From positions 5,464,871 through 5,528,870 of the forward strand of contig NC_134025.1 in NCBI RefSeq assembly GCF_964204645.1: DNA of 64,000 bases. Reading direction: 5' to 3'. The position numbers and the translations under genes are program-made. This document shows, one piece after another, positions 16,601 to 54,807 of the stretch. The notes under the pieces were generated by a model. The model saw only the letters and a program-made list of their open reading frames with translations, did not search any database and had not been told where the DNA came from. Numbering within the stretch: the stretch's first letter is position 1; each line of letters opens with the position of its first letter. The DNA comes from Tubulanus polymorphus (Eukaryota > Animalia > Nemertea).

Positions 16601-19600
16601 AAGTCTATCTCCGAGAATTAATGTTATTTGTCCATGAGATTCCCTCGGAAGATATTTACAATACGGGGATTAGGTGAAAATTTGATAAAATAAAATGATC
16701 TATTTGTGATGATGTTGGGCATTCCGTTACGTCAGCGGTGTTGATGGGATGTTATAGAAGCTGCACGAAACGCTTCGGTATTAATTACTGGGGGTCGGTC
16801 GTTTTAATCTAGTTCTAATCAGCCCGATCAAGCGGTTGTGTTTTGGGTGCAAATATCGTTTATTATAGAGCTTTGTGCTTTACTGCGATATCGGCAGACA
16901 TTCCGGCCGCTGCGCACCTGTCATCGGCGGCCATTTTAGATCAATGCGCGCACGGATCCCGCCGCACGAAAATGAGTTGCACTTTGTCTTAATGTAATTC
17001 GCTTGTCGTCGCGCTTACAGAATTTATACGTTAATTGCATGTCCGAAGAATGCTTTTGTATTCACTGTGCGATATTGATATTGATGTTCATTGCTCCTTG
17101 GAGACGATCGTCCATGATTTTACAACGAATTAACACCGAGCGAAAATCGTTTAATCAGTTCGATGATTAAATGCTGTCGCAGCCGATAGTCGGATTTGCG
17201 AGACATTCTAACTAAATTACCGCCAATTGCTGCATTTTTTAGGCTTCAAATCTAATTCCTGGCTATCCTTCTTGTTTGCCGAAGCCAATGTAAACGTCGC
17301 TTGTGCGCTGTCTGACTTTTGAAGTAATCTTTTGGGCGTAAAATTACATAAAACTGCCTTCGGTTCTCTCGTAAACTTACCTAGCCAACTAACAAAAACG
17401 CCGCCGAAAGGTGTACGTATACACCTTTCTATGAATGAACTTGACAGCAAAAGAGAATATTCTATGTCTTCATATGAAACTTTTGTCGCGTATTTTTGAC
17501 TATGCGGTCGGTGTGAATAGTGTTATTTCTTTAACAACCGGAAGAAGTCGGTAAAACATTCGCGTTCAACAATTGTATTACAAACTTTAAGACAAATTGC
17601 ATGATTTATGTCGACAAATTGCCGCGAGACTCTTAAATGAATTTGACGAGACAATTACCTATAGATTATAGAAAAGGTCCCGCAAGTATGGCACCTTTTT
17701 GCCCGTAAAATCTGACGGGAGCAATAATCGGTTTCATTTGCATTCATATTAAGGAACCGACCGCGCAGTCAACCGTTGAGTGTACGTGTCCAGCTCAAAG
17801 GATCGGAGCTGAGTTTCATTAGGCGAAGTCGCCATTTATCCCGATTTTTCTTTATCAACTCTATACGAGAAGGAAAAAGCGTAGGAAGCGAATAGAAATA
17901 AAATTTTACCTCATTCGAGACGCGTATATTATAGACCATCCTGATAGTGTCGCCATGTTGTCCGTGTTTCTTGGTATTTTTCACATTGTCACGGATCTGT
18001 TTCACACTGACTCGCTTTCAGCAGAAATATCCCTACACTATATTTTCCACCATTTTTTTCTCGAAGAATAAAAGGGTAAACGAATACACTGTCTGCTTGC
18101 ATTCTTTCCGGAGAAAATGGAGAATGCGCTGCCGGCGTACGCTGATAGCTTGAGCAAACTTTTCTCTCGACTCTGGCCAGTCATAGCTCAGATTTTTATT
18201 TGAATTCGTTCGTGTTGACTTTGGAAAATAAAATACACTATTGCCGGTATATTCCCTCTCTACTCGAGATAATATTGATCACTATGATGTATGGCACATA
18301 TAGCAGATGGGTGATGATGACATCCATACAGATTCATATATTTTCGAATGCTGCAAATTTAATATCGACGCTTTGGTCGAGTGCTTCCTCTGATGAGGGT
18401 ATAAAAGAACGACAAAATACTCATTTAAGACGAAGGCAGTTACGCTGGATGAAATGTATTCTTTGATCAATGTTTTCATATTGATATGTTAGATATCTTT
18501 TCTCATCCTATTAGCAAAATAATATATTCTATGGCCAAGTGTTTAGAAGCAGTCAATCTTATTCGATCAAGAATTAAGTATTTCTTCGCATCCACGTATT
18601 TTTCACTTTATGATACAGATATGAGGCGTAATTAGTTTAAATATATATGTATTCATTGCCACCAGCGGAATTTTTATCACGATCGCAATAATCCTTTAGG
18701 GAATCAGATATTAAAAGGAACATTAATCCATATCTCAAAGGCGTCCATGGAAACTTTCATAACTTCGAATCCTTTTCCGATTTATCGCGAGAACAAAGTG
18801 TCACAATGGATGGTCTGGTGGGTCTATTGTCAACGCTTCATTGTTATTGTACCGCTCGAGGCTGGATACTTACGTTTTATTATGGCGAGCGACTGATTTC
18901 CAGTGCCGATACTCGATGCTCGGGGCCCGTTCTTTAGAAACCGCGGATCAGCGCCAATCGCCAGCTCCAGAGACGAAGACGCCGGAAATGTGTTCCTTTA
19001 GGGTGTTCAAGGGCCTGTACTAGTTGCGACAAAGGTGATTCGTGGAGGGAGGCGATAACAGATTATCAGCTATTTAGGGCCACTTGACAGCGTGCCACGC
19101 TGCATCCACACCCCATATGTTCACCTGAAGTCAGCGCCCAAGTGAGCCACTTCAATTTACCAAATGCGTTGGTCTTTCCATATGGAACTCATAGCCAAAT
19201 TGCGGTAAATTTAACAAAAGAAAATTATTAAGGTCATTTTGTGTGTAATGGGTAAGAAGGCAAAAATAGACGCACACCTTCCTGACACCACAAACCCGGC
19301 AAAGTAATCAATGTATATTTCTGAACATTGCTTCCGTCTAAATGATCTTTCTAGTTAACGTATTTCTATTCTTTAATTTGTTCATGTTTTATATTACTAG
19401 TCAATAATTATTATGGACGAAAGATTCATCCACGGAACGAATATTCGTTCTATATTACTCTTGCGATCAAACGCATCGACGACAAAATATTATGGATTGG
19501 TTTTTCGATTTATTTGATAATCTCGACGAGCGGCGCGAAGAGTATACGATGTTCCGTGCATGAGACTCGAATCATCATCGCCCAAAGCATCTGAGGAACA

Positions 19601-22600: not shown

Positions 22601-23146
22601 TGTTGTATGTCTGTATGTGTTTGTGATGCGTCTCGACGTGTGATGAGATCATCTATTTCAGATCGACACATTCCACGGCGACGGCGAGCGCGAGAGAGTG
22701 TCGCGGATTCGCCCGAAGATGATTTTCAGCGTATGAGAGGAATTTTGGCGTGAGAAATCGGCTTTCAACCTTGCAAAATCTCTGATTATTAGTATTTAAG
22801 CCTGCAGCGATATTTGACAGGAGGCGACGATATCTGTAACACAGCAGACAAAGCAATATCGTTTTAAGCGCTTCTTACCTTGTCTTGCTGCAGTGCGCTT
22901 CGTCGCGATGTGAAACATGAATCTGAAATGCTTTATAGCTTCATTTGATTTCTCGTTCATTTTTCTGTTCTGATAATTTGTCAAAGTCCATAACCTTTGA
23001 CCATAAAAAGGGGGCAACGAACTTCATTTGTTCCTCTAGATTATGAATACTGAAATGCTAAAGAAACTCGTAATTGTAATTCGCTAGATATTCCAGATCA
23101 ATCGTCCAGTGTCCGTAGAATACAACATCGCATGGTATTAGTCTAT

Positions 23147-23196
23147 CCATGGACGTATAAACTAGTTTATACGTCCATGGACTCGAGAGTCCATGG
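23147..23196. repeat. Two overlapping perfect or near-perfect palindromes built on three CCATGG cores.
   Basis: 23147-23180, ccatggacgtataaactagtttatacgtccatgg, is a perfect 34-bp palindrome. 23175-23196, ccatggactcgagagtccatgg, has 9-bp arms around cgag. Confidence 0.9.
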
Positions 23197-26100
23197 TCTA
23201 TCGTATTCAATAACCCCGCGTTTGTGAATTGGAAGCGTTTTTCTATATTTTGCTAGTACTACATGGTATTTCAGCGCACGTTAATTACCTAGGAAAACGG
23301 CGCTTAATTATTAGCTGCCAGCGTTCAATAGTTTAAGCATAGATGCGATTACCACTTTGTCATTTGATAATAATTATTGCAACCGACATAGAAGTGCAAA
23401 AGATGTCAAGAGTACCACCACGGAGCCGGGCATCTGTTCCCTATACAATACGCACATACAAATACATACATAATATGCGGTGACAATAAGTATTTTCATT
23501 GTGTACGATTGAAAAAATGTGGTAATCAAATCCGCAAGTGAAAGTGTTCTGACTGAAATACAACGAAAACAAAACAACCTGTTCATTACACATGCAAGTC
23601 GTATAAAGTTGAATAAGATTTTCATCTCCACAAGGACAAAGTTTATTTCTGCATACCGACTATTTTTGATAGATTTCTTACAAATAATCTTGAAATGGTA
23701 ACGAAAACCGCCATATCAGACCATGGACTCTAGAATCCGATCAGACAGACAGAAGTACTTCGATATTTTTTTTTCATCTGAAGCCGTATAAAAAGATGAT
23801 ATAACGTTATTATTGCCAGATCTTGTAGTAGTAGAAGAGGGAAACTGGTCGCATCGACGAGTGATTAATAAGGAAAATAGCACAAAATCGTTGTTGGTGT
23901 CCCATCGACCTATCTTCGCGCTTGGTTGAAATGAGTTCGTATCTCTCTATCAATGAAGTATCTGATCGATGAAAACGTACTCGCTCAAATTGGCTCTCAC
24001 CCGTCCGATGGTGCTGACGTTTTCTTTTTGATATCCCGCGACCTCCAGTCCGTCGCTTATTTTTATCGCAGGTAGAAAATAATGTAAATATCGATAAGAA
24101 AAATGCATTCTAACGAGAAACTACAAACTATTGTTGAACACATTTATTGCCTATGCACTGTGGATAATTATGTAGAAGGAAATGATATATTGCGGCGTAT
24201 TTTTTATTTTGAAAGATTCTTTGTAACATCAACATATCTCATATACATTGCATTTGTTGTGTTTGCATTTCATCAAATAGATTTTCACTTGAAGTTTAAG
24301 GTTATCCTGGTGAAAACGAATATAAATTTCACGATATTCATTATATTAGAGAACTATTTCGCTGTATTGGAATCATTCGGTTCTATCAGTTTGTCGTTTT
24401 TCAAATGATGTTGTTAAAGACGTGGTTTTCTAGCAATTCCCAATTGTATACATATATCGAAATGGATATCAACTTCATTCAGAAACTTCTGAGATCCTCG
24501 AAACGAAACGTTAATTCTTTTATAATCGCATTATGAAATCGTTATGAAAACCTTGGTAATTGATCAAAGCAAAGTTTCTACAGGATGAATAAGGTTCCAT
24601 TAGTGACCATTACGGCTAACAAAACAACTACTCCAAGCGAGAAGCATCGTTTACGAAACGTGTAAAAAATACTTCCGAGCCTTGGGGGTGTGGTTCTTGA
24701 AATTTGGCGAGATCAAACCAACCGCCACTTGTCGATATAGTAATGTTGCTATGATGATAATGATGGGAAATTCTATACAACTGAACAATTTGCAATGAAA
24801 CGAATAGACGGGCACCAAAGTACAAAAAAGTCCTCTAGAAATTAAGTTCCGTTCAACAGAGATACCATATAAGTTTTCATGTGAATTTTCTTTGCGACGA
24901 AAGGGTTAATGTTTTTGAATCAGAACAGAAATACCTACCTCACTTTAAAAAACCAATTTGGAAATATTCCTGCATTATTTTCATAAATTGTGTCTTTATA
25001 TCTTTTTATAGTTGGTAATGAAATTTTCTATGCGCATTGAAGTAATCATATCTATAAGTTAGAATATATATCTGGATGGGGCTCAGAGGTTTCAGTAGCT
25101 TGGCTAGTCCATCATTTTGATTTTATTTTGGCTTAAATTATGTTTTGTCTTTTTGTGCAATACTTTCGCTGGTGGAGAAAATGAGATAGAAACTGACGGT
25201 TTTGTTGTTGTACGCACGTGTAGGTTATAATATTAGAGTCGGAAAAGTAGTTGAATGAAGTGAAGAGCGAATCTGTTTCTGTCGTCAATATCACTTGACA
25301 CGAAAACTTCGACGTATATATTTTAGTCATAATATCTGCCAGAAACTCCTGACATACTTCCGATCATGAAATAATTCGTAGTTTCTTCCCGGTCATTTAC
25401 TATACGCAGGTGTGATTTATATATACTTAACAAATATACGTTAAATTGTCGTGTTAAACATATGATATATACATTCTGTAATTTGAATAACCGGTAGAAG
25501 AAATTTCGCTGCCGCGCGCTATACCACCATCTGCGGAAACTTTTCTCCGGCGACTTAGTTCTGGAATCTTGATGCGAACAATGATATGCATCCATTATAG
25601 AATTATAAACTGACTAGGAAAACAGACTTGCACAGTCTCTCAAAGCATTTTGCGTTGTTCGGGATGTGATAGACTATTCAATAGCGACAAATTGAGTGGT
25701 TTGAAATCTCCATAATATTGATTACAAATTCAGCGTTCTCTCTTCAGTCCGTGTCACAGGTGTCTCCGCTGTCATCTCCTCGGTAGCTTGCTACCGTTCT
25801 AGTAGCTTAAATACATATATTTGTGAATATTCAATTCTTAGCAACGAAATGGAAATTTGATTCGCTCACTTAAACTATATTTTACCAGTATTTTGCCCAA
25901 TTTTTAGGAGAAATGCATATGGATTTAATTCATTGTTCCATCAGGAAAGGTATTTCCTAGAACTAGACCGATGGAAATCCGAACCAATGGATTTATACTG
26001 ATAAAATATGTACAAGCGCCCGAAAGGAAAACCAAATTAAACCGCCTCAAAATAAACATCGCTCAAATAAGAAATTTACGAAGATGCAAGTTTAATATAT

Positions 26101-27063: not shown

Positions 27064-28461
27064 TTATAAACTTGCTGTAACAGCGGACGAGTGAGGTACG
27101 TGGTAACCTTTATAATAGTCTGTCATGCTAACTTGGTTGTGGTCTTTGACACCGCCTCCGTGGTGGACCGGAGTAAGTTGGTTATAGTTCCCGTAACTTG
27201 CTTGCAAAGATTCGTACATTTTTAGATCCATTTTGCTTTCGGCGGATGACATGAGATTTGTGATGGAGAACGGATGGTTGAATTGATTCAGTTGTCCGTG
27301 ATGGTGGGGATGATGCGGATGACCCATGAGGCCCGATGTGTCATGAGTGAGGGATCTCAGGTCCGGATGGTGATGTTGGAGTTGTTGGGGCTGCTGCTGC
27401 TGTTGCTGCTGCTGTTGCTGTTGTTGATGTTGTTGTTGATTCACCGACGGCTGATGATGGTCCATTCGGTCCATTCGATCCATTCGGTCCATTCGGTCCA
27501 TGGGATGATTTTGATGATGAAGATGATGATGGTGAGGAGGTGTTGTGTTGTGATCATGGTTATTGTTCAACGGTTCTGGCTTGACCCCTGAGATACTTTG
27601 CGGCGAAGTAACGGATTCACACGGACTGAGCGGAGGCGACGAACACGATTTGCTTCCATTCAACGATTTGTCTGAATTTTCCGAATTCTCATCACGTTGT
27701 GTCTGCCTCAGCACCTCTTTTTTCGGACATTTGAAGCGCTTTTGTCGGCGAAGATAGCAACCGTTTTCGAACATATTTCCCGAGTCCGGATGCAAGGTCC
27801 AATAACTACCTTTTCCGGGTCGATCGGGTGTACGGGGTACTTTTACGAAACAGTCATTGAACGACAAACTATGCCTGATTGAGTTTTGCCAGCGTTGTTG
27901 ATTCTGACGGTAAAACGGAAACAGGTCCATGATGAACTGATAGATTTCGCTAAGCGTGCACATTTTATTCGGAGACTGTTGAATAGCCATGGTAATCAAC
28001 GAAATATACGAATACGGCGGTTTTGCGTGAGTGTAACTTCGACGATACGTTTTCTCTCGGGCTCGGTTGATGGCTTGGGCGCGATTATAGTCCATAATTG
28101 CCGGTGACATAGCACCGTTCATCGTGTTCATAGTTCCCATCGAAGCCATGCCGTTCATGCTACCCATAGTGTTCATATTGTTCATGCTGTTCATATTACC
28201 TGACATGGACATACCCATACCACTCATTCCAACTCCGCTTGCGCCCATGCTTCCCATACTCATAGGCTGTGGCGAATAACTCATATTGCCCATAGACATA
28301 CTTCCCATGCTGCCCATGGTGCCCATAGCGTTCATCGTGGGCGATATACTCATAGAATAGCCACTGCTACACGAGGCATCGTACGGTGACTTGGTAGACA
28401 ACATCTTGCTAACTCTGACCAAGTCCTGGCTGTATGAAGTGACGTTAGTATCTGTACTCAC
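27064..28461 (-). CDS. foxA: Forkhead box A (FoxA / fork head / HNF3-like) transcription factor, main coding exon.
   Basis: A 465-codon ORF carries a forkhead domain, '[101 protein letters not shown]', that is near-identical to vertebrate FoxA1/2 as I recall them. The N-terminus is the Met/Ser/Asn/Gly-rich type typical of FoxA. The C-terminus has the FoxA activation motif '[11 protein letters not shown]...KMDLKMYE'. The true start is uncertain: the track 'M' at 28461 is GTG, the first in-frame ATG is at 28404-28402, and a good acceptor (aaattccag|CG) at 28480-28481 could extend the exon to 28479. Confidence 0.93.
27385..27440 (-). repeat. Imperfect (CAG/CAA)n trinucleotide repeat inside the FoxA coding sequence (poly-Gln, about 20 Q).
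   Basis: The plus strand reads ctgctgctgctgttgctgctgctgttgctgttgttgatgttgttgttg, which translates on the minus strand as [17 protein letters not shown]. Confidence 0.9.
27459..27502 (-). repeat. A 9-bp tandem repeat (about 4.5 copies) inside the FoxA coding sequence, encoding (Met-Asp-Arg)4.
   Basis: The plus strand reads ggtccattc ggtccattc gatccattc ggtccattc ggtccatgg, which encodes [14 protein letters not shown] on the minus strand. Confidence 0.9.
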
Positions 28462-28760: not shown

Positions 28761-31700
28761 GAGTGGGCATCGTATAAGTGTTTTTCTGGCAAGTTTAGTC
28801 AAAGTTTCCCTGAAAAAAAAACCTGATGATAAACGCTGAAAATATTTTCGAGATAATCTCTTTTCCAAATTTACGGAGTTTTTGCAAGAATTCAATATCT
28901 AAGACGCAAAATCATTCCATATAGTAGAATCGTTTTCTGACGGTTCCCATTCTAAACGTATAAGCCATACGTTTTATGCTCGGGCACGTACGCGGGGCTT
29001 CTAGTTGCTAAGACATGATACTCCCTTTTTTAAATCGAATAAAGCCTTCGTAGGCGCTTGAATGGAATCAAATCGGCCCACAAAGAACTAAATCTGTGAA
29101 GCGTTCAAAGCAATATAACACACCAACAAATAACTATATTTCCGCCGTTGGCTCGTTTTTTATCCCAGTGGTTTAGAAGAGCACACCTGCTTGAAAAAAG
29201 ACGATTCTCACTGGTTATCGTGTATGCTCTTCATTACAGAATGTGTTGACTGAGGTGTAGTAATGTAAAGGGTAAAGCACAAATATCCGTGCGTATAGAA
29301 TTGTAATAAAATTCGTCAGTTTTCATGGTTCGGACAATACGGTTTGTTTGTTAAGAGGTTCTTTGCCGGTATGCTTGCCTAATTTGTCGTGTCGAAGAGA
29401 TGAAGATAATGTCAACAAGTTAGTATATAAACAGTTTATCGTCAACACGTTAATGAAAGCTGAACTCATAATTCAATTCTAAGGAGAGATCACGGGGAGA
29501 TTGGAACTCCGAGAGAGTTCCAGCACGCGGTTATGAGGAATATCATCCGGTGCGGAGGACTGGTGGGCGACGCAATCAATGTCGTTAAATCCGGTGCCGT
29601 TGAAAAGACTCCAACAGTGCGAGTGGTCGGGGGTCGGCGGTGCGAAAAGATTTTCGAGATCTCAGTGAAAATAAACGACTATGGCCGGCGTTCATATTCA
29701 GCAACAATTTCAAAGTAATTGTGAATGGGTAATTTAACCGCGTCTAGACATCTTGTTGTTTTATATTCAATTTTACTTATTCAGAATTGTGAAGGTATGG
29801 CACCACATCACTGTCTCCATTTTTAAGAGAACACGAGGTAGAAAATTGTCTTTGAATCAAATCAATATTTTCCTGATAATGCTATTTGATACGTATGTGG
29901 TCTAAACTCACTGATCTAATGGTCCACGGACACGGGCCGGTTTCATATTCAACGACTTGCACAGAACGTTCAATTAACCTCGATAACAGAAGGCTTATAA
30001 TGAAATGTAGCTCCATAAGTTGCCTGTAAAACAGGACCCAGAACGGATTCTTACGTGTTTTTTCACTTTTACTCGGCTTCATTGAAGTAAATCTCAAATT
30101 ACCTCCTTTGGTGATTTTGAAAGTAGTTTCTTACGGTCAACTACGCTGAAGCTAGAATTTGAAGCCGACGAGAATGCGCATATTATTGTAAATTCGCGGC
30201 GTGCAAATTAGCTTAATTCTTTTACTGCGACTTCGCGGCTATAAATAAAAGGCGATTGACCATTGCTGAACAATTATGTCCCTCCACTGGCCATATAATC
30301 ATATCAACACCTGGTCCGACACCTTTCTTTAATTCAACCTGTAAATGTGTGTGGCCGTATATTATTATTATGATCTTTATGACCAAATTGTATATACGCC
30401 AGTTACCTGTCCTTACGAGTCATTGTTCCCTTTATCAGGTGTTGTTTGGAATTCATAATGGCTGACAATAGAGATTTATATTAGTGGGAGGAACGGTGTT
30501 TGTGTTTCAATTTTCCCACCGATTTTTCGTGTTGTTTCGGCAATTATTGCGATTTAAGTTGTCGTCTACCTCCAAATAGTGGACGCTCTTCTTGCATATG
30601 GCGGCCACTCAATCTCGCGCCAGCAGGTCGCAAGGACCCAGGATCGTCAGAGGCAAATCTTCAAGCACTGCGACAGATGACTGATACCAAGAACTGAACG
30701 ACCCCAATCACGGCTAAAACGATCAAACACTTGAAGTTAGCCCACAGATGGGAGAATTGGCCGCTGTTCTCTCCGAATAACCCAAATCAAGAATTAATGT
30801 TCAATTTATTATCGGTAATTTCACCCCGAAATGGCCAGATATTTGACTTCATTCTAATTTTGTTGTAAACTTGGATTCTTCTTGGATTCTTCTAAGGATG
30901 TTTGGTTGTCGATTGGATGAGGATATGTCGTATCGGCCTATCACCGATTGTTAAGAGACACACCACACAAAAATATAAGAAAGTAAAACGTTTTGCTTTT
31001 TTCGAGTTTACTCTAAACTTGGCTTCTAGTCAAGGACGAATTTCATTACTACAAACGATTTTACTTCAAAATATTTCGTGGATACCACTGAGGCGTTTGG
31101 ATACGTGTGTCTTTGATTTTTGGTGCTGGCACAAAGACACCCCGTAGGTATTGTTTTCATAGAAAAGCTAAGCTTTCAATGCGTCGCGTATAATAGTAAA
31201 AGATGAACAACGCGCATTCTAATGTCTGAGCGCATCAGACCTCGTGACTATAAAGTGCCATTAATTGAAGGCTTTGTCGTCGCTAATTGATTGATTTGAG
31301 GATTTTACGGAGCTTTTCTAAACACGGGATGATTTTGAACTGTTGCCACCATCCGCCTATCCATTACAAACGACACTTCTCAATCAGAATGTTTGATTTC
31401 GTTCACACTTCTGGCATGAAAGGCTTTTTTACGGTGACAGCGAACCCACTATTTTAGTGACGTCGTGTTGCGTCAACATCACGTATCTCGTGGTGCTTGA
31501 CAACGAAAACAATTTGTCCGAGAATTTTGGGAGATTTAATCAGATTTTACGAACTGCAGTCGATATCATTTTGCATAAATGAAGATCTCTTAGGCGTTAA
31601 GCATTGTAAAACAACAATCTCAATGGCAAGCAAACGAATGATTGAGCTACTTAATCCAAACTAGGGATGTTCACTTCCCTGGCGCAACCGTGAAGTGAAG

Positions 31701-37700: not shown

Positions 37701-40416
37701 CAAAGTTAAAAGTAGACAATTTGGTATACAAAATCACTCTAATTAAAAGATTCATTTTTGCAAAGTAGATGATAGTTAATAGACATCTGTTAACCACTAT
37801 CGAATGAGCAAGCAAGGCTGGCGTTCAAGAAGTTATCAAAGCTGACAACATTTGTCACGTCTCCGACTGGTAGTAACTTATCTTGTTTTTTTTGCAAATA
37901 ATTATTGCACCTAATGCGATAGGTTTGTCAATCATTGTTTCCCTGTCATTATTTGAGAATTACAAATTCCGATATTGCTGGGAATCCAAAATACAATGAT
38001 ATAAACATGTTTAGGATTTCTCTTGGCCTTCCAAAGGTCGACTAAAATGGTCATATGACCGATGTGCTTAAACCCATCGACTTAGTCATCTATATTCGGG
38101 ACCGTTCGTCTCTAAGCAGGCCCGTGCGTGAGAAATATGCGGGTCGGTTCGTTTGTTATTTGGTTGGAATAGAATGGGGGTCTGGGGGCTCCTGGTAAAA
38201 GTTTGAAAATCTGATGCTCATATGACCTCTGAGCGATTTCCGTTGTCAAGGTCTGAATAAATGAACAAAGATCTTATGCATGTTGTAGTAGTTGAAAGTG
38301 TAATACGTTTGAGCTTGATAATATTTTCAAATCAAAAACGAATTTTTCGTTCGATCCCCCACGCTACAGGCCTACCCAGCAAATTTAAAAAAAAACCAAA
38401 CAAACACTGACACGGCATTTCATTTTACAGACGGAACTGACGTATATTTATAAGACTTGTTCATTATCATGAATGTTTGAGGATGCCGGGTTTCATTATC
38501 ACATGAACATGTGGTCATTATGCCCATGGTTGAACTTCGGTTAACCTGACTCGAACCTGACACAGCCAACACGAGCTGTTTGCGCGTCACCACAAAAGGA
38601 ATGATGGGTCGTGACCACTAGTCAGGACAATAGCATTACAACACGTACCGACGTGCAGAGCGACGACGTTTGTCAAATACATTTAAAATTAAACTCCAAT
38701 TGCCTTTTAAAATGATAAACCAGAAAAGGCACAAAGGGCGCGGTCAAGTCGCGAGGACATTATAAAACTAGAATAAGTAATGCGGACTTTAAGATATCGA
38801 ATGATTTTGAGGATAGCAAAAATTATTCTAATCCAATTTTGCTCAATTTTGAAGTTTATGACTAGATAAGATTGGACTCATGTAATGCAATAATTGTTTT
38901 TAACAGTTGGTACTGGCATCATACTAGGTGTACATGCCAAAACCAGCTCAAAATTAGGTTGAAGGCGCCTCCCGAGACGATTGCAGGTGTCAAGACAGTA
39001 TGTTATGAAACAAGACAGCAACGTGTAAACCAACATTTATAAGGGGCCGATTTTGTTGTGGCTTAGTTCTACGGGGGTTTGCTTCATTAGATTCAGAATC
39101 TACTTATTGTCATTACGGAACAATTAAAGCAACTCAAACGCCGCATTTACGACGGGTGACAGATGGACAGACCTCGGGGCTTCATCTTCGAGTATCGCAC
39201 GACTTTTCTCCTTGAGTTACAACGCACGATCAATCAATACATTATTATTCTGAATGTTTCACAGGACTGGACAACGACGCATCACAAAAAGCGCATCCGC
39301 GTCCATCAACACAATGTGACTACCTGTGTAGTTCGTGTCCGTTATACTTCACCTCATATGATATTGAACATTCGCATGGGCTGCACTTGAAAAACATCAA
39401 TGGGAAATAACAACAATTAGAAAATGAATTTCCAAGCATTACAAATAAACATTTTTCTTAAAAAGAAGATATTCTAAGCTGATGAGGTGAAATGATAAAA
39501 AACATCGGGATTTTTACGCATTTTCTGCTCAGTTACACCATGGACTCTTGTGAGTCCATGTCCATGGGTCATTTTGGTTTGTAATGTAATCGAATTTATT
39601 TTATATAATAAATGCCTATTTCTATTATGTCTATATTTTTAACGAACAATTCAACCACGCTTTGTTATGTACTTGAAATGCGGCTTTTTTCACAATGTTT
39701 CGATGTATACGTCACAGTATGATATTTCAAACGGGATAGTTCGATCTGCAATCATAATGGCTTTATAATGCCCTTGTCTTGGTTTTGGACGTTCGCTGGT
39801 TTTCCCTGGGGGTTCAAAATGATCCCTAGTTAAGGTCAGAGTGTGTGTCATGACCACCTCTAATCGTCATTATCGTCTCATTGGGGCGTCTTCGTAACAC
39901 GTGCCGCATTCACGACTGTTCAAACGCATTGATGTAATTCGCCGCAACGAATCTTAATCGAAGAGTAAACTCGATTACGTTCTCGAAATACAACTCTTTG
40001 AAATGAGAGATAATTGTCGTCCTGAACACGCGCTTGGCCCCGAATGAACCCAGACCAGCTATACGCGATCCCGTTTCAATGAAATTCAGTTTAAATATCG
40101 TATTTCCGTTACTGACTTGGATTAATATTTCATCGCATCATTTGTGACATATCGTGGCTCGACGACAAATTTCTATTAAACTTGGGCGTTAAGACGTGCC
40201 GGTGTGTATAAACGTAAGATCACAACGAGACAATATACGACATTCAACTCATTCGATTAGAAATGATAGTAAAACGAAACATCGATTCGCTTAATTTCCT
40301 ATTCTCATCGAGCTATTGTCATAGATTGAATCCTTGCTTAGGAAGCTGATTAGGGTCAAACACTCGGCACGTCTTCAGCAACTTTTCACCTTTCTCGAAT
40401 CGTGATGTTTGCTGGT

Positions 40417-41170: not shown

Positions 41171-44100
41171 AATGACCAAATAATTTCTAGGAAAGCCACG
41201 AAACACGAGACAGGAAGTGCGGCAGCGACTTCCGTGCAACAGTCAGCGGTATCACGACAGCGATAGATAATGAATATATGCCCATTAATCTGAAGTTATT
41301 ACGATATCATGCAGTAGATATTCATTCCATCAACAATCTGAATGCTGACCGATTGGAAATTAATTTTTTCTCGATTATCATGAGCACTTGAAAATTAAAC
41401 ATCACAGGTCATCTTCGGATTTTCGTTTGGATTCATTTCAGCGGAAAACTTCTGGGGAAATTGGGGAGGTTCCTGGCAAATAATACACAAAATACATTTA
41501 CGTACTTTTTATCATATATAATATGAATTTGCAATTCATTTCATAATTCTTTGAATTTATATGCATATTGAATTAGATGTTAAGTACGAGATTATGATAG
41601 CAGCAATGTGCTACGCAGGATCGTAAATCTGAGATGTTAATGTTTAACTGTGAAAAGCTTCGAAATTTGTTGCTGATTGGAAATTGTTGAGAGATCTGCT
41701 ACGATAGAAAATTGATTTTTCTTTTGTCGGATTTTATTGCCTGACCAAATGCATTGTGTTTGTAGTAGATTTTACGCATCAAATCTCTATGTTTACCGCA
41801 GATGTTAATAATACGATTAACAACTCGCATGGCATGTTGAATATCAGAGCAAACCTTACAAAATCGTATAAAATATTTTTGTTCATGTTTTAGTTAACCA
41901 TGCTGTCCATTCATACGATTTGTTATGATTTTGTGTAATAATTTTGCGGTATTTGGTCACCTATTTCCTAGTCTAGACCATGGACTGCCCTTTGTAGCCT
42001 GAATAGTACGCGTGAACTTTTTCTGAGCTGACCTGAATTTAGCGAGTAGTTCAAGGCATCTCTAAACAACCTCCAGAACTAAATGTGTAAATTGTGTCAA
42101 CTGCGAATGTCCCAGTAACTAAGAGACCATGAGGGTCAAAGGCTAACGGTGGTCTTGGTATCTTAGTTATAAGGTGATGAAAGCTTACTATTTCTAACAC
42201 TATTAGTTGATTTAGTTCTGAGGGTTTGGAGTAAGTGGAAGTTGCAAATTACTAGTGAATTTTTGCCCTTTGAGAAGTGCATATCGTTGCTTTGTGTGTT
42301 TTGTTTCTTTTCCATTTCTTAGTTCTTGATTAGTTTTGAAATGTGGAATTAACTATGGCAAGTGTCGCATTTATCTTTGATGGAAATTGAAGAAGTGAAA
42401 ATGAAATTGAAGCTATCGCGTTTTAGAAACAGTTGTTTCTTATTCCAAATCAGATTCGTTATTTTCCAATCCATCGCTTGTTGTTTATGGTCTTGAAGCG
42501 CTTCCACCATTCATGAATGACCATATTATTGTTTAATGGTGATTAATATTTACAACTGAAGGTCGGTTCGTGCCAGCCAGATTGGTCGATATTACTACCG
42601 GAAAGTTTGGATTGGAACTTTACAACCTACTATCTATAACGTCATGATAAATCTGCAAATATTCATTTATATACTCGGTGCCTGGGATTGCATCTGAATT
42701 ATTGACATATTTACGACATTTAATATTTCGTAGTAAATTCAGTCGGTCTCAACCAAGAATCAGTTTAAGTTATCGTCAGGTATGAGGCGGATATAGACGA
42801 TATATATCTGTATTCGAATTGAAAAAATGTCTGAAAAAATATGCAAAAATTTTACGCATTAGATCCGCTTTATAAAGATTTGAATTACAAAATGGTAGCT
42901 AACAGTTATCAGATATACACCGACCATGAATTTTGTTCTTTCTCTTTCACTTACAGTGCAGCCGAACTTAAACATTCAGCCTTATCTCCAGATGACAAAC
43001 CCAATAAAAGCTCGTTCCACTATAAGCCACCCGGCTTCGTTTTTCAACCTATATACTAAAAATTGTTTGGATAAACGTCCGGTTGCCGATCGCCGCGAGA
43101 TTTCGGCCGCCGATCATTTTACCGCCTGAACAATAGATTTTAGAATTTGAATTCCATCGTCGTTATCGGAGCTAGTAACCCTTGAGGTTAGCTAAAGGGC
43201 AATATTAACCGAATGGTCAGTGCAAATATTCTTCGGATTCGAAGTAATCAGAATTTCAACGCTTTAAGATTTTAGTACGAAAAGTATGACTTTGTTGTTA
43301 GTATATATATAGCATTGATAGAATTCATATATTCGAAACAGTGAAATGAATATTCGAATACACTTTTTATTTCTACGGAAGAAAAAATAGCTCAGTTGCA
43401 AATTGCGTCTCGATATTTCGAAACAATCTTTTCTTTTGTAACTGTCGCATCATCCGACGATTCCCCCATTTAAAACCGAGAAAGCAATCGATGCATTGTG
43501 CCTCAGCCTCAAGCGATCACAGTTACCCAGTTTTCTTTGGCTGCGCATGCTCATTCGAACCAACGGGCGCATGTACTTTTTTCTGGCCATTCAGAAAAAA
43601 AATACGCTCGTTGTTAGCTTAGGTCTCAAGTAATGTTCGATCGACTTAGCCCGAATGGAGTTCGAGAATTTTCAGGTAAGACCGTATGAAAAAGCGGTTG
43701 ATAGATTTGTGTATTTATTTGAGAGCTGTTTGCACTTTATATTCCAACTGACCCCTCGGTGACTGTAGCTTGTATACGTATAATGTATTACAGATAGCAT
43801 ATTTATGTTAATCAAGTTCCACACATCTAATTCACTCCGCCCTTCACTACTATCGATTGTAGACCTCTGGTTGTAGAACTGCTACAACCGCATTTTACGT
43901 TCTTAGTGAACGACGCGATGATGACGAGGACGATACCGTTTGCCAAAATATCAACGACGAATATTTCGCTATATCATGTTTTCTGATCTGATCTCTACGG
44001 TTCATTCACTCAGAGATGTTCTTCATAAGGGTGACCTGTACTTTTTGAGATCTAAAAACTTGGCCTATTTTCTACTCACAAGTTTTTGGTCACTGACTAA

Positions 44101-45877: not shown

Positions 45878-45982
45878 GAGCGCGACTGTATGAAAGCCCA
45901 GCTGCAGCATGTTCTTTGTCGAGTCTGCGGAGATAGAGCGTCCGGACTGCACTACGGAGTTTTTGCCTGCGAAGGCTGCAAG
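45878..45982 (+). CDS. Nuclear receptor NR1 subfamily (E75/Rev-erb/PPAR-like), exon encoding DBD zinc finger I.
   Basis: The exon encodes '[35 protein letters not shown]', the nuclear-receptor P-box finger. It ends at aag|GTAAAA (donor at 45983). It starts after the acceptor tttgcag at 45871-45877; the in-frame ATG at 45890 is a possible start if no coding exon lies upstream. Confidence 0.85.
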
Positions 45983-48900
45983 GTAAAAAGCTGTTGTATC
46001 CTCTCTTCTGCATCAGTCGTCCTTTTTCAAATGATTCGATATTAGCAAGAATTTTTCAATATCTTGATGATATTTTGTCGATCGTTTTAGGCATTTGATG
46101 TCGAAATTATTTGTCGACTAATAACCACGCTATTATCGGCATAAGCCGGGGATTCACGAAAATGTTGAAACTTTCTCTGGATACATTCCATTCCGGAATC
46201 TGTTGATTAGTGGGTTTTTTATAAATACAAATCAAAATCTCAGTGAGGGCATATCAATTTATCTTCGACCAAATTTGCGGAAGAATTTACATAATTCAAT
46301 CTGTATAGCCCGGTCAATTTCTGCGACTTTGATTGGAAGGGATTTAATTTCGAGAAGAGTAAGGTTTCGGGTTTATTATCCCAACTGTAATTACTACATA
46401 ATGTCATTATCTATTTCGTTACATTAAAGGGATCAATGGACATGGCCATAAATTCTCTGTGTCAGTCTGTCCGCTCAAATCTATTGATTATAGGCAAATG
46501 ATTCTAATCAGAGGATCGAATCAAGAGATTGACTCATCATGAGCTCAATAAGAATTCGGATTTCATCAAGAAATCTGCAAGTACCTCGGAAATTCCCACC
46601 AGTATATAGAAGAATCCACGCGTCCTGAAGCAATTCCCATAAGGAGGTCATCTAGACAGTGACCGCGCTGTAGGTTGTATTTGGTTACGCCGACACCTCG
46701 TGACATCTTAATGACTTTCGCAAGTTTTCATCGTTCATCGCGTGGAACAGCAGTTGCAACCAGTGGACCACAAAGATCTTGTTAATTAAATATTTGTTAA
46801 AATTGATGATACCAAATACACCAAGTTCATCTTGATAGCTATAGCTATTTCGCTGTGTTTAGATTAGATTATGCTTATGGAATGATGAAATGCATAAATT
46901 GACACATATGAACGGTATATATTCGAAAGCGGAATGGAAACTAATGAAATGTTACGATTTGCGCTCGGTGGAAACCTTTCGACCTTATAACATCGATATC
47001 AAATGAACCTTCGGGCTGAGCCTAATTAGAATTTTAGACGACTTCCTCTGCATTCGTAATAATCTACATATATAATATGATAGTCAGTCGGGTTGGCTAA
47101 TGCAGTCAGTTAATTATCCGTGCTAACAAGTTTTCACCGGAAAATTGATTATTACATCTGTCTAACATGAGGTTTACCATTTTACCGATTTTCGAAAGAG
47201 ATCTGAATAGACGGTTATTACTCGACCTGCATCGCCGTTAACCGAAAATAAGTTAACATTCCCGTGTAACAGCCTATAGCCGAAAAATCGTATACCCTTT
47301 CGTCTGATATAAATTCTAGTTTTATTACCATCACCGGTGAAAAACGTCTGCGAATAATTTCGGTGCAGACGAAACGCGCGAATATGAGTGAAGAAAAGAT
47401 TTCTAAAAGTACACAACTACAAAAGATTCGTTTGGGCAATATTATCCTCAACGTTGTCTGACACGGACGGTGTGTTGCGCGCGCTGAGATGAATACCCGT
47501 GTGTTCCAGAAAAATAATGCTAACCACTTTGTGGGCTTTAGTTTTGATTGTCCGACAACTATAGCCCACTGAGTCTGATAGAACGTAGCTGAATAGGGAA
47601 AGGTCTTGTTTCTGTGCCATTTAGACGGTGTTCTTCGTGGTTTCTAACTGGTGCTTAATAACCGACTTTCTTCCGTCTATCACCTTTATCTCGCAAATAT
47701 TTGTGTCTTGAAGTTGTGGTCAATTTGGGATGTCAATAGATGAGCAAGTTGAGTTGGCCCGCCCCTACCTCCGAGGTTGACCACTTTCTTACAATGTTCT
47801 CATTCATAATCGCAAAATTATTCAATGCAGCCGCAACAAAAGAAGTTATCTATGTAACAACGTTTGTTCTTGATGAATTATCAATACTGCAATGAGCTGG
47901 TGGTACTCGAATAAAATGGCGGACTCTGTGCTGCAAATTCAATGAAGTGTGTTCTCGACGTAAATATGCAAATGACCTTAGTAAGGTCAGCTGTAGCCGG
48001 CACTATCGCCTTGAGGGCAAACTTGTACTCGAGGATGGCCTCAGAATTGTATAAATATATACCCTTGTCTCAACTAGATTCGATTGACTAGTTGAGTCGT
48101 GCACCGTCGTCCCAATTCCCCCTCAAGGGTATTACATTTCGATGAGCAGAATGGCGTAAATCATACGGACGGAACAATTGAATTACAAGGCAGATTTCAT
48201 GAGATCTAAGTAGAAAATCATCACCAAAAAGATCAATATACCCCCGATATACAAATCTGGCTTCTCGGTCATTAAAGTTCTGAAAATAGCTTTAATACAA
48301 ATACATGACTCAGCTCAGCGAGGATAATAAGTACGAAGTTGGTTTCTTCCAGTTCGGAGGAAATGAAAATTTGGTACACGAAAACCGAGTAAATATACAC
48401 AGCGGATCAAATCCGTCGGACCAATTCACGTTATTAAGTTGTTAATACGAGGGAAATATGATTTCTGTTTGGAATCTGGGCAATAATCCGATTGTATAAA
48501 CTTATTGGTCAATACGTGTCTATCTATGTAATATAGATTCATCTCGGTTGACAGGCCGGACATTCCTGATATATCGGCGCATTGTAATCATACAATTTGA
48601 AAATCCTAATTCAATATACTATGTTGTATCAAATAAACAGAAGCATCGACGTTCATTTGTAAATAGCGAAATACCTTTTCTTCTTTTCTTCCCATTCTCT
48701 TGAAAATCTACGATTGATGTCAACATATTTTTCTTTCTAACCTCCTTGACTTGGATTCATTTTGTTTGCGTTAGGTTCCTTGTTAGCAACTACAGCAGCT
48801 GGACTCTATATCAGATATCTGTTTAACTCCGTTTAATGTTTGTTGAAATCTTTTTATGACACTATTATATGAAATATATAACATAATTCGGATATCGTTA

Positions 48901-49023
48901 ATGTCAGACACATTTTCACAGTCCCAAGAGGTCCGATTTTAGCGGAGTCTACCGTACATGTTTGAGATATTTTTGATGGATTTTATAGAAATCTTAATTC
49001 ATAATCATAATTTTCTATTTCAG

Positions 49024-49168
49024 GGATTTTTTCGACGTACGTTGAAACATAATTTGCAATACAAAAAATGTCAGAATCCGAAAGGATGTCTGATAATGAG
49101 GATCAACCGGAACCGTTGCCAGTACTGTCGCATGAAGAAGTGTTTTTCTGTGGGCATGTCTCACGATG
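49024..49168 (+). CDS. Same nuclear receptor gene, exon encoding DBD zinc finger II.
   Basis: Encodes 'GFFRRTLKHNLQYKKCQNPKGCLIMRINRNRCQYCRMKKCFSVGMSHD', a D-box finger with the RINRNRCQYCR motif of NR1D/E. Acceptor is ttttctatttcag; donor is GTAAGT at 49169. It joins the previous exon in phase 0. Confidence 0.9.
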
Positions 49169-49263
49169 GTAAGTCCGTAAGAAATATATAGATATATGTA
49201 TTTTTATTTTATTTCATGCGTATGGAGTTAATAAGTTGGTTTATTGGATCACTTTGTTTACAG

Positions 49264-49578: not shown

Positions 49579-49951
49579 ACTCAAGAAATGCCAGACGGTA
49601 CAAGATACATAGCGCATATAGTCAAGATATTTGATTATGTAAATCGTGTAACGGCCTTCGCGCGGGGCATCCCTCAATTTTCTTCCTTGAGCATTTCCGA
49701 CCAACATACACTATTAAAAAACGGCGCGATGGAATTATCGGCGCTGATCGATTTCAACGAATTTCGCAACGCGAAAGAAGAGGGTTTTAAACCAAGCGTA
49801 ATATACAGTTTGACCAGGGAAGTCTGGAACAATCAGGAAGTGGTCCACGGACTATGCGAGGAATACTACAACTTCGCGACAAAACTTGACAAACTAAAAC
49901 TTACCGATGTCGAAACTGCACTGTATATGGCTCTAGTGCTATTTTGTTCTG
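49579..49951 (+). CDS. Same nuclear receptor gene, first exon of the ligand-binding domain.
   Basis: Encodes 'TQEMPDGTRYIAHIVKIFDYVNRVTAFARGIPQFSSLSISDQHTLLKNGAMELSAL...ALYMALVLFCS', whose helix 3-5 signature 'F..IP.F..L...DQ..LLK.G..E' is nuclear-receptor. Acceptor is ttccatttcag; donor is tct g|GTAGGT in phase 1. Confidence 0.85.
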
Positions 49952-50153
49952 GTAGGTAATTTAGTTCAGGCCATTTTGTTAGATTATGATACATATGTGT
50001 TAATTGAAAAATGACTATATAAATCTCCTCGAAGATGTAAGAGATACTGATTTGATCTTCATATGAATAAAAGGAATGGGTTTCGAATGCAGTATGCTCA
50101 AAAGATTCAATAATTATTCGCTGTTAACTAACCTAGCGATATGTATGATTTCA

Positions 50154-51055
50154 GATCGCGAGAGTTTAGAAGATTGCAAAGTGGTAGAAGATATCGAAAT
50201 GGCGTTAGCCATGGCTCTGAAAACCCAATTCTCCATTAACCACGCCGAATCACCGAACGCTTTTGCCACCGTACTTTATCTAATTGTTGATCTCAGGGCA
50301 TTGTCAGTGAAATACTGGGAACTTATACTAAAGGCGCCAGTCAATGCAGCATCCGATGATGCTCATATAGAACTAGGACTATCAGAAACCGACGAGCCAA
50401 ATAAAGCAACACCTGTCAACGCAAATGATCAATTGGGCAGGGAGTTGCCGGCATCTGACGGTCACAATAGTGATGTTAAAATCGAAGCAGTTTCTTATCC
50501 CATAAACGATCACCAACAACGGCGAAGTCCAGGTCAGAATGGCTGTTCGCCCAGATCCTCCGTGTCGGACGATACCTCATCGGTCGGGAATAGCAGCTTG
50601 AAAAATCTGGAAGACTACTATCAGAAACATTCGACGACGAAACGAAATAGCATCAACGAAGAGACATGTAGTAAAAGATCGAGCGTGTCGTCGAGCAGGT
50701 CTTCTCCCGAACAGATAGACCGGCCATTCGATTATAGCTTGAAACAAAGGTCACCGGACAACAACTCGCACCTCGTCGTGCCGCAAATGCCGCCTGTCTT
50801 AACCGTTGCACGATCGATGGAACATCAACGCCCTTTGGACTTTACAGCGCAACAACATCGCCATTCGAGCCTGGCGCTTTCACCCGCGCAACAAGAACTG
50901 CTTTACAAAACGAGACTTTTAGCTGAACACAACCATTACATGCAACTTCACTACGCATTCAACGGTATTCAATCGCATTTTCCAATCTATCCCACGGAAT
51001 GTGTTCCCGGTCTCCGTCGGTTTTTCCCGCAAAACAGGGGCCAACAAAATAGATG
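50154..51055 (+). CDS. Same nuclear receptor gene, last exon (LBD helices 7-11 plus a long Ser-rich C-terminal tail).
   Basis: Phase-1 junction G+AT gives 'LVLFCS-D-RESLEDCKVVEDIEMALAMALK...FATVLYLIVDLRALSVKYWELILK', the NR helix 7-10 pattern 'LVLFSPDR'. No AF-2 (helix 12) motif is visible, as in Rev-erb. The coding sequence ends at a TGA. By my count the ORF spans 50075-51055; the ORF track lists it as 50076-51056. Confidence 0.85.
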
Positions 51056-54220: not shown

Positions 54221-54807
54221 TTAGAGATAAAAGTTGAATTTTGTAGCGAGGAACATTGGCATTTTTGTGTAGACGAAAAATCTCCCCTGGCCGTAGTATC
54301 TCACCTGCATTTTATCATTTAAATCGAAATGTGCCGTATTCGACAAACATTTTTGTTCACATTGTATTATGTCAACAAGATCCAAGCCGGTCGTAACCGC
54401 AGAGACATCTTTAGCACAACCCAATGTTATATGCCCTTTGCTTCCAAAACCGGAGGTCGGATGGAAATTGGGTGGATACGAAGTCGAGCCCATTCCGAGG
54501 TTTATGTCGTTACAACAGCCTTGGTAGCAAGGTGCAGAGCGGTCTTTACAATTACCGTCAGTATCATTCTGCGCCCAGAGAGGTAACTGTCGCTCGGTTA
54601 AACGAACTCGTGCGCCGAGCGTTCGTGGTGTCAGTAGAAAACCAACGACTTCGATGACATAGAAAGACCCTAAAGCTTCGCGAACTGCGCGTCTTTGCTC
54701 GTAAGTGGAACATTCGGGTACCGTTCCGCGTCCACAGAACATGGCCGTGACATGAAGAGGCATACTGTACTTTGTCATGTCGGAGTAGTAAGTGGACAGA
54801 TCAAAAC
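54221..54807 (-). CDS. CNPase-like 2',3'-cyclic-nucleotide 3'-phosphodiesterase (2H phosphoesterase superfamily), terminal coding exon.
   Basis: Two H-x-T motifs are present ('MPLHVTAMFCG' and 'KGHITLGCAKDVSAVTTGLDLVDII'). 'LLTPRTLGARVRLTERQLPLW' closely parallels human CNP '[22 protein letters not shown]' and '[22 protein letters not shown]' as I recall them. Acceptor is catttcatatacttttag at 54808-54809. A stop follows, with AATAAATAA about 15 nt downstream on the minus strand. Confidence 0.85.

What the first reader, a model, noticed from the sequence alone, without database searches (positions are those of the whole stretch)
23147..23730. Recurrent 11-mer ACCATGGACTC and palindromic CCATGGACTC...GAGTCCATGG structures at four sites.
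ccatggact(c) occurs at 23175 (inside the double palindrome), 23721, 39538 (ccatggactcttgtgagtccatg-tccatggg) and 41978. Two of these sites have the same inverted-repeat architecture with a 3-5 nt spacer. About 0.03 chance occurrences of an 11-mer are expected in 64 kb, so this is either a family of short foldback/MITE-like elements (23147-23730 may be one unit of about 580 bp bounded by the motif) or a reused protein-binding palindrome. All copies lie in the non-coding interval around FoxA and the nuclear receptor.
Basis: seen in the sequence. Interest (0 to 1): 0.5.

Follow-up and report, generated by a model that had tools for sequence, protein, structure and literature searches.

The report
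Short transposon remnants flanking FoxA
The repeated CCATGGACTC palindromes are most likely small leftovers of one cut-and-paste transposon family in non-coding DNA around FoxA, because two of them sit between 7-bp target-site duplications; this is ordinary genome debris, not a 580-bp element or a demonstrated regulatory site.

Summary
CCATGGACT occurs 5 times (0.24 expected). There is a perfect 36-nt palindrome at 23146-23181. The same inverted repeat, CATGGACTC-N2/4-GAGTCCATG, occurs at 23176-23195 and 39539-39560. Word counts alone are weak evidence, because a 12-mer seen three times arises by chance in 25-50% of simulated windows.

The decisive feature is new. The double palindrome is a 48-bp insert (23148-23195) that starts CATGGAC and ends GTCCATG. 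It is flanked exactly by the direct repeat GTCTATC. The copy at 23722-23739 (CATGGACTCTAGAATCCG) starts in the same register and is flanked by ATCAGAC on both sides. None of 22 other short palindromes in the window has such flanks.

These two are therefore separate insertions with their own target-site duplications. The 580-bp "unit" between them is not an element. Copies share at most about 21-24 nt, and self-BLAST finds no longer repeat.

Best reading (confidence about 0.58): excision footprints or extreme deletion derivatives of a DNA transposon with CATGGAC termini and 7-bp target duplications. It resembles the P superfamily in these respects, but membership is untestable here. The motif is not enriched at FoxA loci of five other molluscs. 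Genome-wide copy number could not be checked. Interest is low.

The parts
23141..23147 (.). Left target-site duplication GTCTATC of cluster A
   Evidence: An identical 7-mer recurs at 23196-23202. It ends immediately before CATGGAC.
23148..23195 (.). Cluster A: 48-bp insert, CATGGACGTATAAACTAGTTTATACGTCCATGGACTCGAGAGTCCATG, with 7-nt terminal inverted repeat CATGGAC/GTCCATG
   Evidence: This is the only CATGGA...TCCATG pair in the window flanked by identical 7-mers. It is also the only TSD+TIR structure of 100 bp or less found in a blind scan.
23146..23181 (.). Perfect 18+18 nt palindrome inside cluster A (TCCATGGACGTATAAACT / AGTTTATACGTCCATGGA)
   Evidence: Arms are 100% complementary with 0 nt between them. 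Self-BLAST E is 5e-11. The DNA fold is -18.4 kcal/mol, z = -7.2.
23175..23196 (.). Second palindrome, CCATGGACTC ga GAGTCCATGG
   Evidence: Arms are 10 nt with a 2-nt spacer.
23196..23202 (.). Right target-site duplication GTCTATC of cluster A
   Evidence: It begins immediately after GTCCATG.
23715..23721 (.). Left target-site duplication ATCAGAC of cluster B
   Evidence: It is in the same register as in cluster A, ending right before CATGGAC.
23722..23739 (.). Cluster B: 18-bp insert CATGGACTCTAGAATCCG. It equals CATGGACTCT|AGAGTCCATG with one G>A change and a 2-nt AT deletion.
   Evidence: It is 90% complementary over 21 nt to 23179-23199.
23740..23746 (.). Right target-site duplication ATCAGAC of cluster B, running into a (CAGA)n tract
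39539..39566 (.). Cluster C: CATGGACTC ttgt GAGTCCATG followed by a tandem TCCATG duplicate. No 7-bp flanking repeat is found.
41971..41987 (+). Site D: a solitary end CATGGACTG (41979-41987) abutting the 8-bp palindrome GTCTAGAC (41971-41978). Removing CATGGAC restores the 10-bp palindrome AGTCTAGACT. No partner end is found.
   Evidence: This copy may be chance.
18743..18752 (-). Site E: a solitary TCCATGGACG (minus strand). It shares CATGGACG with the left end of cluster A. Membership is uncertain.

Best explanation
The motif copies are remnants of one family of cut-and-paste (class II) DNA transposons. The family's ends read 5'-CATGGAC(TCT / GTATAAACT)...GTCCATG-3', and it duplicates 7 bp of target on insertion.

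Cluster A (23148-23195) and cluster B (23722-23739) are two independent insertion sites 540 bp apart. At each site nearly all of the element has been lost. What remains is the two inverted terminal stubs joined head to head, which makes a short palindrome, still bracketed by the intact target-site duplication. This is the classic structure of an end-joined excision footprint or an extreme internal-deletion derivative.

The AGAC that extends the motif to AGACCATGGACT is not part of the element. It is flanking target DNA (GATAGAC, ATCAGAC, TCTAGAC), which suggests a target preference for GTCT/AGAC next to the cut.

What is shown directly: the flanking direct repeats, their shared register, the shared termini, and the lack of any longer homology. 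What is inferred: transposase action, excision followed by repair as the source of the palindromes, and the perfect 36-nt palindrome arising from fold-back or fill-in of a roughly 16-nt terminal overhang. Cluster C and sites D and E are assigned to the family only by their termini.
For: 1. Cluster A. Identical 7-mers GTCTATC abut a 48-bp insert whose ends are CATGGAC and GTCCATG. Identical 7-mers at two fixed boundaries occur with frequency 2.0e-4 in this window. Allowing +/-3 nt of slack at both boundaries gives P of about 0.01.

2. Cluster B. ATCAGAC flanks an 18-bp insert that begins CATGGACTCT in the same register. P is 0.010 per end for any insert of 10-60 nt.

3. Control. None of 22 other short palindromes in the window has a flanking direct repeat of 7 bp or more, even with +/-3 nt of slack. 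In a blind TSD+TIR scan, cluster A is the only hit with an insert of 100 bp or less.

4. Shared termini. CATGGACTC(T) is shared by A, B and C, with fillers of 2-4 nt. CCATGGAC occurs 10 times against 0.9 expected.

5. Flanks. Three ends abut AGAC, and site D abuts the perfect palindrome GTCTAGAC. This fits staggered-cut palindromic target sites as described for P (consensus ATRGTCCGGACWAT, PMC2577343) and Galileo (7-bp duplication, GTANTAC, PMC4168063).

6. Literature. [quoted passage not shown] P transposase leaves 17-nt terminal overhangs (PMC7776569).
Against: - No full-length or longer copy, transposase fragment or shared internal sequence exists in the 64 kb.
- Clusters C, D and E have no detectable duplication or partner end.
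- Cluster B's flanking repeat runs into a (CAGA)n tract. After correcting for about 10 candidate ends its P is only about 0.1.
- In a blind scan, TSD+TIR pairs arise by chance at about 1 per window for inserts up to 2 kb. The case therefore rests mainly on cluster A.
- There is no tail of diverged copies. The 14-mer with up to 3 mismatches gives 8 matches against 3 expected, and all of the excess is at the known sites.
- Genome-wide copy number and empty sites could not be examined, because the species is absent from the searchable collections (best FoxA hit 55-58% identity).
Confidence: 0.58

Rival explanations
1. The palindromes are binding sites for a dimeric transcription factor. Candidates are a nuclear-receptor-type protein reading AGTCCA/TGGACT half-sites, or a factor reading GTCCATGGAC. 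On this view they form a homotypic cluster that regulates FoxA and/or the neighbouring E75-like receptor.
For: - All copies lie within about 14 kb of FoxA in non-coding DNA.
- The core is palindromic and recurs in two clusters of three copies.
- TGGACT/AGTCCA resembles an HNF4-type half-site, and GTCTAGAC at 41971 is the canonical Smad box. Both points are from my own knowledge and were not tested.
- Transposon-derived sequence can also be co-opted, so this rival is not strictly exclusive of the best explanation.
Against: - It does not explain the 7-bp direct repeats flanking clusters A and B.
- The spacer between arms differs (2 vs 4 nt).
- A perfect 36-nt palindrome far exceeds what a binding site needs.
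- The motif is not enriched within +/-10 kb of FoxA in chiton, abalone, scallop, limpet or another mollusc.
- These sites show no sequence conservation, although a different non-coding element (18141-18226) is conserved with the same loci.
Confidence: 0.12
2. The palindromes arose locally without any transposon. Template switching or hairpin-primed repair would have turned a quasi-palindrome around the self-complementary core TCCATGGA into perfect inverted repeats. The other copies and the flanking repeats would be coincidences.
For: - Perfect zero-spacer palindromes are the expected product of fold-back synthesis.
- Word recurrence of this size is not rare: a 12-mer seen three times appears in 22-52% of simulated windows.
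- An unrelated 12-mer is seen three times in this window.
- The 41978 copy shares only 12-13 nt.
Against: - The same 9-10-nt arm forms an inverted repeat at two loci 16 kb apart.
- The seeded recurrence test gives P of about 0.003-0.007.
- Direct 7-bp repeats abut the palindrome ends in the same register at two sites. A palindrome-making process produces inverted flanks, not direct ones.
Confidence: 0.18
3. 23147-23730 is a single foldback or MITE element of about 580 bp, bounded by inverted copies of the motif.
For: A 21-nt, 90% complementary inverted repeat joins 23179-23199 and 23718-23738.
Against: - No direct repeat flanks that unit at any register.
- Each end has its own, different 7-bp duplication.
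- Identity is highest at the inner side of the arms, not the outer.
- The interior has no second copy in the window and no protein-family match.
Confidence: 0.03

Closest known systems
Excision footprints and internal-deletion derivatives of cut-and-paste DNA transposons, with P-element footprints as the textbook case
   Same: Short inverted stubs of the two element ends are joined head to head and bracketed by an intact target-site duplication. [quoted passage not shown] P transposase cuts 17 nt inside each end (PMC7776569), so stubs of 9-16 nt as seen here are plausible.
   Different: No parent element is known. Cluster A contains four terminal stubs (two nested palindromes) rather than two. 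Cluster C has no duplication.
P superfamily (P element, 1360, Galileo)
   Same: Target-site duplications are 7-8 bp; Galileo's are mostly 7 bp (PMC4168063). Termini begin CATG as in the D. melanogaster P element (my own knowledge). The target is palindromic with GTC...GAC: P consensus ATRGTCCGGACWAT (PMC2577343), against GTCTAGAC at site D and GTCT/AGAC next to three ends here.
   Different: No THAP/P-type transposase, long inverted repeat or subterminal binding sites can be shown. A survey of bivalve DNA transposons (PMC10294476) includes P among the superfamilies searched, but P is absent from the passages on what was found that I retrieved by term search.
MITEs and foldback elements
   Same: They are short and non-coding, have terminal inverted repeats and hairpin potential, and are flanked by target duplications.
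   Different: At 18-48 bp these inserts are far below MITE size (about 100-800 bp). No family of full copies is visible. The 580-bp candidate fails the duplication test.

Membership tests
Class II (TIR) DNA transposon remnant | Direct target-site duplication immediately flanking the insert | tested here: met
   GTCTATC lies on both sides of 23148-23195, and ATCAGAC on both sides of 23722-23739. Chance is 2e-4 per fixed boundary pair. Clusters C, D and E do not meet this feature.
Class II (TIR) DNA transposon remnant | Terminal inverted repeats at the insert boundaries | tested here: met
   Cluster A has CATGGAC...GTCCATG. Cluster B's right end is degenerate (GAATCCG).
Class II (TIR) DNA transposon remnant | Several copies with the same ends at unrelated loci, genome-wide | tested here: inconclusive
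   There are 4-5 loci in 64 kb. The genome itself is not available in any searchable collection. The metagenome scan gave only 15 unrelated hits.
Class II (TIR) DNA transposon remnant | Autonomous copy encoding a transposase | not testable with these tools
   None is present in the window. Stop-free segments near the sites have no Pfam match.
P superfamily | THAP-domain, GTP-dependent RNase H-fold transposase | not testable with these tools
   No coding copy is available.
P superfamily | Target-site duplication of 7-8 bp | tested here: met
   The duplication is 7 bp at both A and B, compared with PMC4168063 and PMC1562414.
P superfamily | Palindromic target motif of the GTCC GGAC type | tested here: inconclusive
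   GTCTAGAC abuts site D. GTCT/AGAC half-sites occur at A and B only on one side. Three sites are too few.
hAT superfamily | 8-bp duplication and YARNG termini | tested here: not met
   The duplications are exactly 7 bp. The termini read CATGG, where the third base T is not a purine. The criteria are taken from my own knowledge.
MITE of about 580 bp (23147-23730) | Duplication flanking the whole unit, and further copies of the interior | tested here: not met
   The flanks GTCTATC and ATCAGAC differ. No second copy of the interior exists in the window.
Helitron 3' end | Hairpin followed by CTRR, with insertion between A and T | tested here: not met
   The ends read ...GGTCTAT|C...GGTCTGA|T and ...GGTCTAG|A. 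Only one of the three fits, and the sequence upstream of the hairpins is unrelated.
Conserved cis-regulatory palindrome | Presence or enrichment at orthologous loci, with fixed half-site spacing | tested here: inconclusive
   The motif is not enriched in five mollusc FoxA loci and the sites are not conserved. However, those species are distant (FoxA identity 58% or less). Spacing differs (2 vs 4 nt).

The most novel reading that the evidence does not exclude
An undescribed P-like cut-and-paste transposon family has been recently active in this lophotrochozoan lineage. Its transposase would make long staggered cuts (about 10-16 nt), so that excision leaves perfect palindromic footprints. Some of these cruciform-prone, transposon-derived palindromes may have been co-opted as factor-binding sites around FoxA and the E75-like receptor.
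Probability: 0.12. Interest if true: 0.35.

Novelty: new member of a known kind. Interest (0 to 1): 0.17.

Why it matters
The finding has limited reach. It explains a striking sequence pattern next to a key developmental gene as transposon debris, not as a regulatory code. That guards against reading short palindromes in gene deserts as binding sites.

If the family is confirmed genome-wide, the termini (CATGGACTCT and CATGGACGTATAAACT), the 7-bp duplication and the GTCT/AGAC target bias would give a handle for annotating a DNA transposon family in a poorly sampled lophotrochozoan. The perfect palindromes would then mark recent excision activity.

Tried and rejected
- **Plain word statistics.** These are misleading because the motif was chosen post hoc, so I replaced them with a seeded test.
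- **Self-BLAST of the window.** It found no dispersed repeat at all, so the flanks of the copies do not align beyond about 21-24 nt.
- **Diverged copies.** There is no excess beyond the known sites.
- **The 580-bp MITE.** It has no duplication at its boundaries.
- **Helitron ends.** CTRR and A|T junctions are inconsistent.
- **Short ORFs starting at the Kozak-like ACCATGG.** All stop within 5-22 codons, read directly.
- **RNA genes.** Rfam gave nothing for the whole window or for 38300-39700, and no tRNA was found. The 18-bp stem is too short for a microRNA precursor.
- **Transposase fragments.** No Pfam hit appeared in stop-free segments near the sites.
- **Public collections.** The viral scan gave 0 hits. 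The metagenome scan gave 15 unrelated hits of varied G+C with no flank similarity.
- **Literature search for the motif strings.** It returned only primers.
- **A candidate 1047-bp element, 38520-39566, with GGTCATT on both sides.** The left end (ATGCCCATGG) is out of register, and such 7-mer pairs are expected by chance at that distance.
- **Transcription-factor identities** (RFX, p53, AP-1, EBF and others). I considered these from memory, and none fits the core.

Full report
**Context**

The window is eukaryotic, from a lophotrochozoan. A single-exon FoxA gene lies on the minus strand at 27064-28461. Its best database hits are mollusc FoxA proteins at only 55-58% identity (chiton, abalone, scallop), so the species itself is not in the searchable collections.

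An E75/Rev-erb-like nuclear receptor lies on the plus strand. Its DNA-binding-domain exons are at 45917-45982 and 49021-49170, and its ligand-binding-domain exons run from 49588 to 51056.

The finding's sites are therefore all non-coding. 23147-23730 lies 3.3-3.9 kb downstream of the FoxA stop codon. 39538 and 41978 lie in the divergent FoxA-receptor intergenic region.

Yes. CCATGGACT occurs five times (23175+, 23188-, 23721+, 39538+, 41978+) against 0.24 expected. The exact 11-mer occurs three times, plus two one-mismatch variants.

The window holds three palindromes built on this motif:
- a perfect 18+18 palindrome at 23146-23181
- CCATGGACTC ga GAGTCCATGG at 23175-23196
- CATGGACTC ttgt GAGTCCATG at 39539-39560

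In Markov simulations of the window, moderately G+C-rich 9-mers present at least 5 times are fully expected (9 observed, about 9 expected). Some 12-mer present at least 3 times turns up in 22-52% of windows. An unrelated 12-mer, CTATTTCGCTGT, does occur three times here with no flank similarity.

A fairer test takes the 66-nt palindrome cluster as the seed and counts other loci sharing at least 12 nt with it. This gives 3 loci against 0.16-0.27 expected, P of about 0.003-0.007. In addition, the same 9-10-nt arm forms an inverted repeat at two loci 16 kb apart. The recurrences at 23721 and 39538 are therefore not chance. The 12-13-nt match at 41978 could be.

**How far does the similarity extend?**

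Self-BLAST of the window finds no dispersed repeat at all; only three local palindromes score. Oriented alignment of the copies shows identity over at most about 21-24 nt. There is no tail of more diverged copies. Nothing in the window looks like a family of full-length elements.

**The key observation: flanking direct repeats**

A search for direct repeats around each cluster showed that the whole double palindrome is a 48-bp insert at 23148-23195. It begins CATGGAC and ends GTCCATG. The identical 7-mer GTCTATC abuts it on both sides (23141-23147 and 23196-23202).

The copy at 23721 is an 18-bp insert, CATGGACTCTAGAATCCG (23722-23739). It begins in the same register and is flanked by ATCAGAC on both sides (23715-23721 and 23740-23746). 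This insert equals the perfect 10+10 palindrome CATGGACTCT|AGAGTCCATG with one substitution and a 2-nt deletion.

The statistics are as follows:
- Identical 7-mers at two fixed boundaries occur with frequency 2.0e-4 in this window. For a fixed left boundary and any insert of 10-60 nt the frequency is 0.010.
- Allowing +/-3 nt of slack at both boundaries for cluster A gives about 0.01. Allowing about 10 candidate ends for cluster B gives about 0.1. The joint chance is of order 1e-3.
- None of 22 other short palindromes in the window has a flanking direct repeat of 7 nt or more, even with the same slack.
- In a blind scan for a 7-bp duplication plus an inverted terminus, cluster A is the only hit with an insert of 100 bp or less. 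For inserts up to 2 kb the chance background is about 1 per window, so long-range pairs mean nothing.

A palindrome-making process would give inverted flanks. Direct flanks are the signature of a staggered-cut insertion.

**Consequences**

Clusters A and B are two separate insertion sites, each with its own target-site duplication. The 580-bp interval between them is ordinary host DNA, not an element. No duplication flanks it, and its interior has no second copy and no protein-family match.

The extension of the motif to AGACCATGGACT is explained by the flanks. The 7-mers next to CATGGACT-type ends are GATAGAC, ATCAGAC, TCTAGAC and GTTACAC, so the AGAC is target DNA, not element. At site D the flank is the perfect palindrome GTCTAGAC, and deleting CATGGAC restores AGTCTAGACT.

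**Mechanism**

Cut-and-paste transposons that excise with staggered cuts leave terminal overhangs at the donor site. [quoted passage not shown] P transposase cuts 17 nt inside each end (PMC7776569).

Two inverted terminal stubs joined head to head form a short palindrome. This matches what is seen:
- cluster B has stubs of 10+10 nt
- the right half of cluster A has 9+10 nt with a 1-2-nt filler
- cluster C has 9-10 nt stubs with a 2-4-nt filler
- the left half of cluster A has 16+16 nt

Cluster A contains four stubs. They read left-end type CATGGACGTATAAACT and its inverse, then CATGGACTC and its inverse, with the middle two overlapping by CATG. I infer that each broken end was filled in or folded back, and that the two were joined through CATG microhomology. 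A deletion derivative of an element with subterminal repeats fits equally well.

The perfection of the 62 nt of palindromes plus duplications in cluster A suggests a recent event. Cluster B is slightly decayed. Cluster C lacks a duplication, and sites D and E are solitary ends with no partner within 8 kb. These three are assigned to the family only by their termini.

**Comparison with known families**

The closest match in behaviour is the P superfamily:
- target duplications are 7-8 bp; Galileo's are mostly 7 bp with consensus GTANTAC (PMC4168063), and P and its MITEs have 8 bp (PMC1562414)
- the target is palindromic around GTCC GGAC for P (ATRGTCCGGACWAT, PMC2577343)
- the termini begin CATG (my own knowledge of the D. 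melanogaster P element)

Membership cannot be tested, because no transposase or long copy is available. A survey of bivalve transposons (PMC10294476) lists P among the superfamilies searched. [quoted passage not shown]

Other families fit less well. hAT fails on the 7-bp duplication and on CATGG, which does not match YARNG. Helitron ends fail on CTRR and A|T junctions. The inserts are far smaller than MITEs.

**Rival readings**

*A dimeric factor-binding palindrome.* This would explain the recurrence and the symmetry. It does not explain the direct flanking repeats, the variable spacer or a 36-nt perfect palindrome. The motif is not enriched within +/-10 kb of FoxA in five other molluscs. The sites are not conserved there, although another non-coding element (18141-18226) is. 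Those species are distant, so this evidence is weak, and co-option of transposon-derived sites is not excluded.

*Local palindrome formation plus coincidence.* This is disfavoured by the seeded test and by the duplications.

**Limits**

The case rests chiefly on cluster A, with cluster B in support. Viral and metagenome scans were uninformative, and no RNA family or tRNA matches the sites.

**Verdict**

The pattern is real and non-random. It is most likely debris from a DNA transposon family with 7-bp target duplications (confidence about 0.58). That makes it a new member of a known kind, of low general interest.

Noticed in passing
window 18141-18226: A conserved non-coding element downstream of FoxA. 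It matches the abalone FoxA locus (L018:29967-30051, 75.6% over 86 nt, E 6e-8) and the chiton locus (L016:19824-19873, 82% over 50 nt). This implies conservation across mollusc classes.
   Followed up: partly
window 42060-42232: An imperfect foldback of about 170 nt with nested inverted repeats (42068-42097/42197-42226 and 42116-42132/42153-42169). The DNA fold has z = -2.9. It lies 90 nt right of site D and may be a MITE-like hairpin.
   Followed up: partly
window 47973-47989: The palindrome TGACCTTA g TAAGGTCA is built from canonical nuclear-receptor half-sites. It lies in the intron between the two DNA-binding-domain exons of the E75-like receptor gene.
   Followed up: no
window 29502-29522: The inverted repeat TGGAACTC cgaga GAGTTCCA lies about 1 kb upstream of the FoxA start codon. 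It loosely resembles the TGGACTC..GAGTCCA arms but has no flanking duplication.
   Followed up: partly
window 24354, 46845, 53298: The 12-mer CTATTTCGCTGT occurs three times with no flank similarity. It served as a chance comparator for the finding.
   Followed up: yes
window 27461-27500: The FoxA coding sequence contains a tandem (Met-Asp-Arg)n repeat. This creates a coding copy of CCATGGAC unrelated to the non-coding family.
   Followed up: yes
window 54221-54778 (-): A 185-aa ORF matches the CNPase family (2',3'-cyclic nucleotide 3'-phosphodiesterase, PF05881, E 8.6e-26) downstream of the receptor gene.
   Followed up: no
window 38513-38519 and 39567-39573: GGTCATT occurs on both sides of a 1047-bp segment that ends in cluster C. 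The left end (ATGCCCATGG) is out of register with CATGGAC, and such pairs are expected by chance at this distance.
   Followed up: yes
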